The notes under the pieces: model-generated
What the model saw: only the letters and a program-made list of their open reading frames with translations
Database searches by the model: none
Told to the model about the DNA's origin: nothing
Assembly (NCBI GenBank): GCA_964016885.1
Contig: OZ024745.1
Span: 92,752,001-92,816,000, forward strand
Origin: Eledone cirrhosa
Lineage: Eukaryota
Length of the DNA: 64,000 bases
Reading direction: 5' to 3'
Made by a program: the position numbers and the translations under genes
Shown here: positions 58,311 to 64,000 of the stretch, piece after piece
Numbering within the stretch: position 1 is the stretch's first letter
Layout of the letters: each line of letters begins with the position of its first letter

Positions 58311-60142
58311 TTACAATGTTTGCTATGAAATAACTTACAATGTTTGCTATGAAATAACTTACAATGTTTGCTATGAAATAACTTACAATGTTTGCTATGA
58401 AATAACTTACAATGTTTGCTATGAAATAACTTACAATGTTTGCTATGAAATAACTTACAATGTTTGCTATGAAATAACTTACAATGTTTGCTATGAAATA
58501 ACTTACAATGTTTGCTATGAAATAACTTACAATGTTTGCTATGAAATAACTTACAATGTTTGCTATGAAATAACTTACAATGTTTGCTATGAAATAACTT
58601 ACAATGTTTGCTATGAAATAACTTACAATGTTTGCTATGAAATAACTTACAATGTTTGCTATGAAATAACTTACAATGTTTGCTATGAAATAACTTACAA
58701 TGTTTGCTATGAAATAACTTACAATGTTTGCTATGAAATAACTTACAATGTTTGCTATGAAATAACTTACAATGTTTGCTATGAAATAACTTACAATGTT
58801 TGCTATGAAATAACTTACAATGTTTGCTATGAAATAACTTACAATGTTTGCTATGAAATAACTTACAATGTTTGCTATGAAATAACTTACAATGTTTGCT
58901 ATGAAATAACTTACAATGTTTGCTATGAAATAACTTACAATGTTTGCTATGAAATAACTTACAATGTTTGCTATGAAATAACTTACAATGTTTGCTATGA
59001 AATAACTTACAATGTTTGCTATGAAATAACTTACAATGTTTGCTATGAAATAACTTACAATGTTTGCTATGAAATAACTTACAATGTTTGCTATGAAATA
59101 ACTTACAATGTTTGCTATGAAATAACTTACAATGTTTGCTATGAAATAACTTACAATGTTTGCTATGAAATAACTTACAATGTTTGCTATGAAATAACTT
59201 ACAATGTTTGCTATGAAATAACTTACAATGTTTGCTATGAAATAACTTACAATGTTTGCTATGAAATAACTTACAATGTTTGCTATGAAATAACTTACAA
59301 TGTTTGCTATGAAATAACTTACAATGTTTGCTATGAAATAACTTACAATGTTTGCTATGAAATAACTTACAATGTTTGCTATGAAATAACTTACAATGTT
59401 TGCTATGAAATAACTTACAATGTTTGCTATGAAATAACTTACAATGTTTGCTATGAAATAACTTACAATGTTTGCTATGAAATAACTTACAATGTTTGCT
59501 ATGAAATAACTTACAATGTTTGCTATGAAATAACTTACAATGTTTGCTATGAAATAACTTACAATGTTTGCTATGAAATAACTTACAATGTTTGCTATGA
59601 AATAACTTACAATGTTTGCTATGAAATAACTTACAATGTTTGCTATGAAATAACTTACAATGTTTGCTATGAAATAACTTACAATGTTTGCTATGAAATA
59701 ACTTACAATGTTTGCTATGAAATAACTTACAATGTTTGCTATGAAATAACTTACAATGTTTGCTATGAAATAACTTACAATGTTTGCTATGAAATAACTT
59801 ACAATGTTTGCTATGAAATAACTTACAATGTTTGCTATGAAATAACTTACAATGTTTGCTATGAAATAACTTACAATGTTTGCTATGAAATAACTTACAA
59901 TGTTTGCTATGAAATAACTTACAATGTTTGCTATGAAATAACTTACAATGTTTGCTATGAAATAACTTACAATGTTTGCTATGAAATAACTTATAATGTT
60001 TGCTATGAAATAACTTATAATGTTTGCTATGAAATAACTTACAATGTTTGCTATGAAATAACTTACAATGTTTGCTATGAAATAACTTATAATGTTTGCT
60101 ATGAAATAACTTATAATGTTTGCTATGAAATAACTTATAATG
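58311..60142. repeat. 24-bp satellite (TTACAATGTTTGCTATGAAATAAC), about 76 units
   Basis: Essentially perfect array; C>T variant only in the last few units. Confidence 0.97.
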
Positions 60143-60277
60143 ATTTCTATATTAAATACATTGAATATAGAGCCTTTATTATAAATCTGATTCAATACTC
60201 CTTTTCACATTCATCATAATACTAAAGAAAAGCCAGCATGTATTATATATATATATATATATATATATTTTTTTTAA

Positions 60278-61840: not shown

Positions 61841-62342
61841 TTGTAACTCTTGATGCAGTTGTAGGATGTTAAACCTGGCGGAAACCATCCCTCTCAAGAA
61901 CTAGACACAGCCAATTTCTTCCAGAGAAGAGTAGGAGAGAGGAAGTTAATACTTTTATCGACCTTGAAAGGGTGAAAGGCAAAGTTCACTTTGTTGGGAA
62001 TTGAATAATATAATATATATATAATATATATAATATATATATATTATAATATATATATTATATATATATAAATATATATATATATTATATATATATTATA
62101 TATATTATATATATATTATATATATTATAATATATATATATTATATATATATTATATATATTATAATATATATATATATATATTATAATATATATATATT
62201 ATATATATATTATATATATTATAATATATATATATATATATTATATATATTATAATATATATATATATATTATAATATATATATATATATATATATATTA
62301 AAATAGAAAGATTTGAATGGATACAGTTTAGTTGAAAGGAAT

Positions 62343-62462
62343 TTATTGACACGTGTTTCTATAACAGTTACATAACCTAAAACAGCTGATATCTACAAAC
62401 TTTTAGTTATGCAGACATTCAATATTTCAATGTTATTATTTACTGTCATTTCATCAGAATAA
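62343..62462 (-). ncRNA. Type I hammerhead ribozyme with extended stem II
   Basis: Reverse complement of 63494-63613. Confidence 0.72.
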
Positions 62463-62997
62463 TATTACTGAGGACCTATTTAGTTTTTATAGAGAATATT
62501 AGGAGGGAGGGGTGAAGTTGTTAGAAGAATAGTTGAAGGAGTGGTTTTTCGATAGCAGTGAGTAATTAGATTCCCATCTGTTGTTTTGACATTTTTTATA
62601 GAATATATTATTGGTTATTTTTCTAAATCTATAGAAGGATTAGAGATAGTAAAGATATGCGTGGTTGGTTTTGTGTTTGCACTTAATTAACATTCAGACT
62701 TAAATTTTTCTTTCAAGTGTACGCATACCTTCACCCACGCATTCACACACAAATATATTTGCACACCTCTACAAAATACATATACTCACAATTCACATAT
62801 TCATACTTACATATATATACACATGCATACACATATATATACACACATGTATTCATGTACATACTTACGCGCTCATGTGTATACATTTTCATACTCAACT
62901 TATCTTTATATACACACGTATAGACACACACATATATACATACTTACTCTAGTCCATGTGTACACACATACACATCTATATACACATATATACATAC

Positions 62998-63038
<41 letters not shown>

Positions 63039-63493
63039 TATACATATATATATACATATATATATATAAGCACTTTAATACATGAATACACTTACATCTA
63101 ACTATACACATCAAACATATATATATATTTACTTATTTATATACATTTTCACATATATATACATACTTATGGACGTTTTTAGACACATTCATTATCGCAT
63201 ATTTGCACCTATTCTCATCGGCATATCTTTCCATTATTAGTGTGGTAATTTAAGGTTATTAATATATGTTGAGAAGAGATTGTTTTTATATTTTTCTAAC
63301 TAGATTAAGGTTTATATAGTTGGGGGATGTCCCTCTTTTATGTAATATTCGGCTTGTAGATGGGAATCTAATTACTCACTGCCACCAAGAATTCTCACTG
63401 CTATCAAAAAACCACTCCTTCAACTATTCTTCTAACAACTTCACCCCTCCCTCCTAATATTCTCTATAAAAACTAAATAGGTCCTCAGTAATA

Positions 63494-63613
63494 TTATTCT
63501 GATGAAATGACAGTAAATAATAACATTGAAATATTGAATGTCTGCATAACTAAAAGTTTGTAGATAGCAGCTGTTTTAGGTTATGTAACTGTTATAGAAA
63601 CACGTGTCAATAA
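63494..63613 (+). ncRNA. Type I hammerhead ribozyme with 91-nt stem II domain
   Basis: ttatt-CTGATGA-a-atgacagt...actgttat-a-GAAAC-acgt-GTC-aataa(a); stem I ttatt/aataa; palindromic stem III ACACGTGT. Confidence 0.72.
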
Positions 63614-64000
63614 ATTCCTTTCAACTAAACTGTATCCATTCAAATCTTTCTATTTTTCTCCGGATTACTTTTGGAACTACAACTGGAACCGTCGAGCAAA
63701 CTCTACGTGAGCTGATAATCTACTGCGTGTAATATTTATATTACAACACAACGGAAAATACTGTATATATATTAAAATATATATATATATATATATATAT
63801 TAAAATATATATATATATATATATTAAAATATATATATATATATATATATATTAAAATATATATATATATATATATTAAAATATATATATATATATATTA
63901 TAATATATATATATTATATATATTATAATATATATATATTATATATATTAAAATATATATATTATAATATATATATATTATATATATTAAAATATATATA

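What the first reader, a model, noticed from the sequence alone, without database searches (positions are those of the whole stretch)
62300..63775. Two opposed hammerhead ribozymes with a 91-nt branched stem II in a 1.5-kb fold-back element
Seen: ~280-bp near-identical inverted arms. Each contains an intact core: CTGATGA (63499-63505), GAAAC (63597-63601), GTC (63606-63608), a 5-bp stem I overlapping AATAAA, and a self-complementary stem III ACACGTGT. Between the boxes lie 91 nt closed by atgacagt/actgttat, with two possible inner hairpins (acatt..aatgt and tgcataac..gttatgta). Known: Penelope-like elements carry type I hammerheads in their pseudo-LTRs, often with palindromic stem III that works as a dimer, and often have an inverted partial pLTR. 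Inference: this is a young non-coding PLE derivative whose ribozyme has an unusually large inserted domain, so transcripts from either strand could self-cleave.
Basis: partly seen in the sequence, partly recalled or inferred. Interest (0 to 1): 0.85.

Follow-up and report, generated by a model that had tools for sequence, protein, structure and literature searches.

The report
Penelope hammerhead with giant helix II
This is a head-to-head stub of a young jumping gene present in thousands of copies, and its hammerhead self-cutting RNA motif has one arm predicted to be a 91-base hairpin, several times longer than in published relatives, which likely leaves it a slow cutter that needs a partner copy.

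Summary
In detail: 263-bp inverted arms (99%), each with an intact type I hammerhead core, a palindromic helix III and 91 nt between the boxes. The interpretation needs correcting. This is not a non-coding derivative. It is a truncated insertion of a protein-coding Hydra-clade Penelope-like element (773-aa RT plus GIY-YIG; 2,246 motif copies). Opposed hammerheads are this family's usual layout (24 divergent pairs, 0 convergent, among 100 listed) and have a published precedent. A read-through transcript is predicted to hide both ribozymes in the arm duplex. The insert folds as an unbranched rod (z -5.25), not a branched domain. What is new is its size: 82-92 nt in three families of this genome, against 12-26 nt in published Hydra hammerheads and 12-29 nt in relatives I fetched. 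Two of the three families close helix II with an A.A mismatch, and all three share a UAAAUAAU loop word. Cleavage is untested, and most copies read through the cut site. A retained-intron reading is neat but has no support from reads or genomic copies. Earlier scan notes reported long stem II hammerheads and these end structures on other DNA of this genome.

The parts
62300..63359 (-). Left copy: last 22 nt of the ORF plus the pLTR (microsatellite-rich 3' UTR, hammerhead), ending at the family's first stop site (about 62303) in (TA)n
   Evidence: Matches the pLTR of full-length copies at 85-96% over about 1.06 kb; ORF end identified; end sites
62343..62462 (-). Left type I hammerhead motif; predicted cut after 62348
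   Evidence: Boxes at 62451-62457 and 62348-62359; 91-nt rod -28.4 kcal/mol, z -5.40, 0 of 200 shuffles
63338..63359 (-). Final codons and stop of the RT/GIY-YIG ORF, at the fold-back junction
   Evidence: Identical to the ORF end of locus L031
63358..63366 (.). Inversion junction: 2-nt exact overlap inside a 9-nt imperfect microhomology between the two copies
   Evidence: Overlap of the two BLAST matches and junction read-out
63358..63768 (+). Right copy: 5'-truncated pLTR end with hammerhead and tail, ending at the family's second stop site in (TA)n
   Evidence: 98-99% identical to most fetched copies; end sites
63494..63613 (+). Right type I hammerhead motif: helix I 63494-63498/63609-63613, CUGAUGA 63499-63505, GAAAC 63597-63601, palindrome 63600-63607, predicted cut after C63608
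   Evidence: Sequence; palindrome duplex -10.3 kcal/mol
63506..63596 (+). 91-nt helix II extension, predicted unbranched rod: A.A mismatch, 8-bp basal helix, internal loop, long apical hairpin
   Evidence: -26.8 kcal/mol, centroid equals MFE, z -5.25, 0 of 200 shuffles
63514..63521 (+). TAAATAAT word over the internal loop, shared with families D and F
   Evidence: Longest word common to the three inserts; 1 of 2,000 triple shuffles reached that length; absent from subfamily B
63513..63579 (+). Candidate 67-nt GT-AG intron (rival reading, unsupported)
   Evidence: Removal leaves a 24-nt helix II; no spliced genomic copy
63654..63768 (+). 115-nt one-sided tail between the two preferred 3' ends; holds a bulged CTC/GAG stem at 63658-63696
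   Evidence: Ends at site 1 (15) and site 2 (25) of 76 motif occurrences; stems start 5 nt after each end
62004..62299 (.). Left (TA)n-type target microsatellite
   Evidence: Sequence
63769..64000 (.). Right (TA)n-type target microsatellite
   Evidence: Sequence

Best explanation
This is a truncated, head-to-head insertion of a young, protein-coding Hydra-clade Penelope-like retrotransposon, whose terminal repeat carries a type I hammerhead motif with helix II predicted to be extended into a 91-nt unbranched rod, and which likely cuts only slowly, as a dimer or with protein help. Shown: the full 3.6-kb unit with its ORF, the copy number, the (TA)n targets, the two fixed 3' ends and the inversion junction. 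Inferred for the layout: the element's enzyme nicked both strands of the (TA)n target, started one cDNA at each of its two start sites, and the two cDNAs joined at a short microhomology. That gives two outward-pointing ribozymes and a one-sided tail. Inferred for the ribozyme: the insert folds on itself and brings CUGAUGA and GAAA together as a short helix II would. In tandem-array transcripts two ribozymes 3.6 kb apart would pair through the ACACGUGU palindrome and cut about 210 nt upstream of the start codon. The A.A closing pair and weak helix I likely keep cutting slow, so most templates stay uncut. The UAAAUAAU loop is my best guess for a binding site (protein, or a promoter element at DNA level); that step is the weakest. 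This particular stub is likely inert, because a read-through RNA would form a 263-bp duplex.
For: Full units: period 3,596 bp, two 785-aa stop-to-stop frames between direct repeats; all 146 scored RT matches (of 40,222 candidates) are 99-100% identical. Predicted folds match TERT (E 7.9e-9) and the I-TevI GIY-YIG domain (Z 9.1, rmsd 2.3, 89 aligned). Hydra motifs RWK, DKT, CxCX5C, CxxC and CxH are present (against PMC8557442 section 11). Layout: 24 divergent pairs, 0 convergent, 3 tandem among the first 100 of 2,246 listed; precedent Penelope-13_HM with hammerheads on both strands. Rod: z -5.25 for A, and -3.3 to -4.4 for four subfamily variants. Core kept across families with about 50% RT identity while the helices change in step: helix I TTATT/AATAA, GCTTT/AAAGC, GTATT/AATAC; helix III ACACGTGT, ACATATGT, ACAATTGT; in F the free position 7 varies (T18, G5, A4 of 27). 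Two copies gain 11.7 kcal/mol by pairing the palindrome, while monomer helix I and III have probabilities 0.003 and 0.05. Only 10 of 23 copies with a non-C before AATAAA are junctions at the cut site, against at least 2,471 motif-bearing copies, as expected for mostly uncut templates; the Anolis element also inserts from uncut RNA and its ribozyme needs protein (PMC11167929).
Against: No cleavage or expression data. No compensatory change inside the rod among 10 A/B sequences (0 of 40 pairs). The D and F inserts fold more weakly (z -2.48, 5 of 200; z -1.77, 9 of 200), and single decayed copies reach z 0.06. Homology of the three inserts is unproven: A versus D sequence z 1.33, and a model built on A/B scores D copies at 16-37 bits, no better than unrelated hairpins (34.6) or short-helix hammerheads (29.9). 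The tree groups A, F and D only weakly (92/62). The loop word is missing in subfamily B and was picked after looking. The active dimer arrangement is 10 kcal/mol above the cofold minimum in a model that does not score the core. U.U is reported as the best tolerated closing mismatch (PMC3088659), so A.A may be nearly dead. F has A9 changed to U in 10 of 27 copies.
Confidence: 0.68

Rival explanations
1. The insert is a small spliceosomal intron retained in genomic copies. Splicing would restore an ordinary short helix II and so switch the ribozyme between a weak unspliced and a normal spliced form.
For: Removing 63513-63579 (GT...AG, 67 nt) leaves a 24-nt, 9-bp hairpin. In F a 56-nt AG|GTAAAT...AG segment leaves 26 nt (read by hand from the copy). 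Both fall in the 12-29 nt range of relatives. Penelope elements keep introns, and the D. virilis 5' UTR intron abuts its hammerhead (PMC4209133; bioRxiv 2021.04.23.441226).
Against: Subfamily B (225 exact hits) has GTTGAT at the donor, a poor splice site by recalled consensus. Four other AGs lie within 25 nt upstream of the acceptor. D has no equivalent pair that leaves a sound helix. No spliced copy in the genome (0 matches), which is weak because these elements retain introns. An intron has no evident need to fold as a z -5 rod.
Confidence: 0.12
2. The ribozyme of the young A lineage is a catalytically negligible relic. The long arm is a tolerated expansion of a peripheral helix with no function of its own, and the element spreads without cutting.
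For: A broke three basal pairs that B keeps, including 10.1/11.1, yet outnumbers it about tenfold by exact patterns. Inter-box lengths in this genome form a series of 26-27, 40, 42, 47, 82, 83, 91-92 nt. Junctions at the cut site are rare. Ribozyme mutants did not affect insertion in vitro for the Anolis element.
Against: Core boxes and in-step changes of helices I and III are kept across A, D and F. D has the same A.A pair. Closing mismatches are normal in the clade: U.U in 14 of 26 published Hydra rows and in 9 of 32 fetched relatives. Long deletions of the insert are rare: 11 matches in all at 15-45 nt spacing, 3 of them from this family.
Confidence: 0.17
3. One reading: a non-coding fold-back element in its own right, built so that transcripts of either strand self-cleave through a branched helix II domain.
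For: The 1.5-kb stretch holds no RT, and both arms keep intact cores.
Against: All of it aligns to the coding element. Distances between opposed motifs differ from locus to locus (296-4,740 nt), so there is no fixed non-coding unit. Branched fold probability about 1e-4. The arm duplex hides the ribozyme.
Confidence: 0.03

Closest known systems
Hydra clade of C-terminal EN+ Penelope-like elements (Craig et al. 2021, PMC8557442; e.g. Hydra-1_Obim, Penelope-13_HM)
   Same: Single RT plus GIY-YIG ORF with RWK, DKT, CxCX5C, CxxC and CxH, no CCHH; (TA)n targets; type I hammerhead in the pLTR with palindromic helix III and often a mismatch at 10.1/11.1; 5'-truncated inverted copy with a second hammerhead
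   Different: Inter-box length 91 nt against 12-26 nt in the 26 Hydra rows of File S2 (longest entry of any kind there 54 nt, my count); A.A instead of U.U or G-C; unit 3.6 kb against under 3 kb, with a 1.25-kb microsatellite-rich pLTR; tail 115 nt against 30-40 nt
[quoted passage not shown]
   Same: Type I, short helix I, palindromic helix III needing a dimer, longer than usual helix II, opposite-strand pairs 100-700 bp apart
   Different: Their long helix II is 7-8 bp with a conserved G10.1-C11.1; here about 36 predicted pairs in a rod with internal loops
PAc (Poseidon) of Anolis carolinensis (Frangieh et al. 2024, PMC11167929)
   Same: AT-rich targets, two RT start sites that define the tail, both strands primed, uncut RNA as template
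   Different: Different clade; its hammerhead overlaps the ORF start and was shown to be protein-assisted; here it lies 210 nt upstream of the ATG and nothing was assayed
Discontinuous Clec2 hammerhead (as described in PMC6155905 and PMC6765202)
   Same: Natural hammerhead whose core halves are separated by a long insertion
   Different: Type III, insertion in helix I (150-1,500 nt), in a host 3' UTR, not in a retroelement
Animal non-LTR retrozymes (PMC7229834; bioRxiv 10.64898/2026.07.22.740005)
   Same: Type I hammerhead in a PLE-related repeat
   Different: Retrozymes are non-coding tandem units of a few hundred bases; this is a piece of the coding element

Membership tests
EN+ Penelope-like element | Single ORF with telomerase-like RT | tested here: met
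   773-aa ORF, YRDD at 352; model pLDDT 85.8, best Foldseek match TERT, E 7.9e-9. Pfam and PDB sequence searches gave nothing
EN+ Penelope-like element | C-terminal GIY-YIG endonuclease | tested here: met
   I-TevI Z 9.1, rmsd 2.3, 89 aligned; next three rows include T4 EndoII and UvrC; Foldseek alone weak, E 1.1; PF01541 in 10 of 56 homologous domains but not in this protein
EN+ Penelope-like element | Tandem units forming pLTRs, inverted 5'-truncated copy, one-sided tail | tested here: met
   definitions from PMC8557442 and PMC3846280
Hydra clade | RWK and DKT motifs | tested here: met
   Positions 37 and 121
Hydra clade | CxCX5C linker; no CCHH in the nuclease; CxxC and CxH near its end | tested here: met
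   CxCX5C at 631, one cysteine only between the GIY and YIG equivalents at 651-667, CxxC at 729, CxH at 757
Hydra clade | Insertion into (TA)n | tested here: met
   40 of 76 motif occurrences end at two sites, nearly all running into (TA)n
Hydra clade | Placement in an RT tree with named Hydra references | not tested
   The tree holds only unnamed relatives; named reference proteins were seen only in a paper supplement
Type I hammerhead ribozyme | CUGANGA, GAAA, UH boxes in order with helices I, II, III | tested here: met
   in-step helix I and III changes across A, D, F
Type I hammerhead ribozyme | Paired 10.1/11.1 next to the core | tested here: not met
   A.A in A and D, A-U in most of B, G-U in many F copies; natural U.U exceptions exist, so this lowers expected speed, not the fold
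Type I hammerhead ribozyme | Rfam hammerhead model match | tested here: inconclusive
   No match at E<=5; a 91-nt helix II lies outside such models
Type I hammerhead ribozyme | Self-cleavage | not testable with these tools
   Needs an in vitro assay; genomic junctions at the cut site (10 of 23 examined) have no neighbouring-position control
Non-LTR retrozyme | Non-coding short tandem monomers | tested here: not met
   Tandem period about 3.55-3.6 kb with an intact ORF
Spliceosomal intron (rival) | Conserved GT-AG sites and spliced product | tested here: inconclusive
   Sites present in A and F, donor poor in B, none fitting in D; no run on record as RNA was available

The most novel reading that the evidence does not exclude
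Helix II of this hammerhead holds a retained spliceosomal intron that folds into a rod, so that the unspliced, transposing RNA carries a weak ribozyme and splicing rebuilds a normal-sized one. That would be a splicing-switched ribozyme and would tie together two unexplained traits of Penelope elements, intron retention and hammerheads. Removing a GT-AG segment gives a 24-nt helix II in family A and a 26-nt one in family F, the size found in relatives.
Probability: 0.12. Interest if true: 0.8.

Novelty: new variant of a known kind. Interest (0 to 1): 0.38.

Why it matters
The role of hammerheads in Penelope elements is open (PMC8557442). This family is intact, very young and present in thousands of copies, and its relatives give a natural series of helix II lengths from 12 to 92 nt. 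That makes it a ready test set for whether cutting matters and what the long arm does. The fold-back layout itself is ordinary.

Tried and rejected
Branched helix II: rejected. Non-coding family: rejected. Neptune or Nematis membership, my first guess from the cysteine linker: dropped, since the motifs fit Hydra. Expression and splicing from public runs: no RNA holder listed. Contigs of four runs of unrecorded kind showed no joint over the ribozyme; contigs drop rare forms and part of the tables was cut, so this is no evidence. Covariation inside the rod: none among A/B. Homology of the A and D inserts by sequence or covariance model: not shown; that model search covered 27 hand-picked loci. 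Pfam and PDB sequence searches with the full protein: blank. A bacterial promoter scan does not apply to this host. The bulged stems after the ends are not stable on their own (z -0.29 and 0.39). Literature: searches gave no paper describing a Penelope hammerhead with a helix II of this size, but I read only parts of the hits. Lunse et al. 2017 (PMC5785218) is not held, and I did not see the supplements of PMC4209133; either may show long variants. The search of earlier findings by sequence was blank.

Full report
Observation. The two arms are real: 62300-62562 and 63394-63656, 263 nt, 99% complementary, with two substitutions and a 19-nt segment missing from the left arm. Each arm holds CTGATGA, a 91-nt spacer, GAAACACGTGTC and a 5-bp helix I. 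Rfam did not call a hammerhead.

What the element is. The window lies in a 3.0-Gb genome. All 40 scored matches (of 810 candidates) to the ribozyme region are 100% identical, and a gapped pattern counts 2,246 copies with 0 for the reversed control. Two matches 3,596 bp apart led to full units: a 785-aa stop-to-stop frame (773 aa from ATG) between direct repeats of about 1.25 kb. The predicted structure matches TERT best and the C-terminal domain matches the GIY-YIG domain of I-TevI. The motifs RWK, DKT, CxCX5C, CxxC and CxH, the lack of CCHH and the (TA)n targets are the features given for the Hydra clade (PMC8557442 section 11). An earlier scan note pointed me to that clade; I then checked the motifs myself. 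The host group was not determined.

Anatomy of this copy. The minus strand from 63359 to 62300 is the last 22 nt of the ORF plus the pLTR. The plus strand from 63358 to 63768 is a shorter pLTR end. They meet at a 2-nt exact overlap within a 9-nt imperfect microhomology. Of 76 motif occurrences in 80 loci (some loci overlap), 15 end at one site and 25 at another 115 nt further on, nearly all in (TA)n; 20 run into the ORF and 16 stop elsewhere, several through indels in my ungapped walk. The window has one end of each kind, which is the known one-sided tail. In the Anolis element the tail lies between two RT start sites (PMC11167929 parts 1-2 of 4). Among the first 100 listed motifs there are 24 divergent pairs, 0 convergent and 3 tandem within 6 kb. 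Opposed hammerheads are therefore the usual product, with published precedent (PMC4209133 parts 1-2 of 4; Penelope-13_HM in File S1/S2; PMC3846280 passages). Folding the whole stretch pairs 119 of 120 ribozyme bases with the other arm.

The long helix II. The 91 nt fold as one unbranched rod (-26.8 kcal/mol, z -5.25, 0 of 200 shuffles). Subfamily variants of 88 and 92 nt keep the rod (z -3.3 to -4.4). Subfamily B (225 exact hits) mostly pairs 10.1/11.1 and has an 11-bp basal helix; A has A.A and 8 bp. Gapped patterns turned up other hammerhead families in the genome with spacers of 26-27, 40, 42 and 47 nt, and two more long ones. D has 83 nt (19 full-length motifs from 30 loci; 1,040 candidates) and F has 82 nt (27 motifs from 25 loci; 3,531 candidates). 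Both lie beside their own PLE ORF fragments, about 50% identical to A in the RT core; these links rest on adjacency in decayed loci. Among 77 metagenome relatives, 32 gave a hammerhead with a spacer of 12-29 nt, 9 of them with U.U at the closing pair. The 26 published Hydra rows have 12-26 nt and 14 have U.U (my count, supplement part 2 of 59).

Evidence that the ribozyme fold is under selection. Across A, D and F the boxes stay while helix I and the helix III palindrome change in step, and in F position 7 varies. Against: no compensatory change within the A/B rod (0 of 40 pairs), weaker folds in D and F (z -2.48, -1.77), no significant A-D sequence similarity, and a covariance model that does not separate D from unrelated hairpins. 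In the RT tree (36 rows; one D fragment left out for low coverage, one doubtful D fragment fell elsewhere) A and F join at 96/83 and D joins them at 92/62. One origin of the long arm is plausible but not shown. The word TAAATAAT starts at position 8-13 of all three spacers (1 of 2,000 triple shuffles; pairwise 21, 374 and 87 of 1,000). It is absent from B and the three families were chosen after looking. It resembles a forkhead site by recalled consensus; that was not tested.

Does it cut? A monomer is not predicted to form helices I and III; two copies pair through the palindrome, as described for PLE hammerheads. U.U is reported as the best tolerated closing mismatch (PMC3088659 passages), so A.A should be slower (inference). 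Of 23 copies with a base other than C before AATAAA, 13 are point changes and 10 are junctions at the cut site. The pattern cannot see junctions that happen to end in C, AT-rich flanks can mimic such junctions, and I had no neighbouring-position control. The firm point is that the great majority of copies read through the site. In B, 6 of 20 distinct copies begin within 20 nt upstream of CUGAUGA, 4 in the next 400 nt, and 10 extend further; the selection required the box, so starts inside the ribozyme could not be seen. This hints at a transcript start or an RT stop just before the ribozyme.

The intron rival. Removing a GT-AG segment gives a helix II of ordinary size in A (24 nt) and F (26 nt, by hand). 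But B has a poor donor, several AGs precede the acceptor, D does not fit, and no spliced genomic copy exists. No run on record as RNA was available. I give it 0.12.

Other papers seen: bioRxiv 10.64898/2026.07.22.740005 part 1 of 5; passages of bioRxiv 10.1101/2021.04.23.441226, PMC6765202, PMC10085705, PMC6962438, PMC6155905, PMC8557442 and PMC7229834. Lunse et al. 2017 was not available and may bear on novelty.

Verdict. Known element class, known layout, and a hammerhead variant with a helix II three to seven times longer than published Hydra examples. New variant of a known kind, interest 0.38. Earlier scan notes on other pieces of this genome already reported long stem II hammerheads and twin end stems; they are leads, not support.

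Noticed in passing
window 63658-63696; L031 6721-6759 and 6836-6851; L269 (family F): A bulged CTC/GAG stem starts exactly 5 nt after each of the two preferred 3' ends in family A; F has two such stems a few bases after its two end clusters. This fits earlier notes proposing an RT start signal, but the stems are not stable alone.
   Followed up: partly
L065-L084; L281-L305: 5' truncations and fold-back points cluster just upstream of CUGAUGA in B (6 of 20) and appear often near the box in F; possible transcript start or RT stop.
   Followed up: partly
window 62294-62305 and 63768-63779: The same 12-nt variant of the TA repeat flanks both ends in direct orientation and overlaps the left end of the element; a possible target duplication with priming microhomology, but the word recurs in the right flank.
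   Followed up: no
window 63491-63498 and 63515-63522: The 5' strand of helix I is complementary over 7 nt to the insert's loop region, a possible inhibitory pairing in A; it is not conserved in D.
   Followed up: no
L096-L114 (family E), L198-L208 (family C), L093, L210, L211: Further hammerhead families with 26-27, 40, 42 and 47 nt spacers; some family E loci lie beside PLE ORFs about 45-51% identical in RT.
   Followed up: partly
window 62620-62660 (minus strand) and 62700-63200: The pLTR has a long CA/TA microsatellite region that ends in a stretch resembling a branch point and 3' splice site by recalled consensus; a possible second intron in the pLTR.
   Followed up: no
window 58311-60150: Near-perfect 24-bp minisatellite, 76.7 copies, 99% matches.
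   Followed up: no
L265 about 6485 (minus) and L266 about 3641 (minus): Unrelated hammerhead-like motifs with 84-nt and 47-nt spacers and matching helix I.
   Followed up: no
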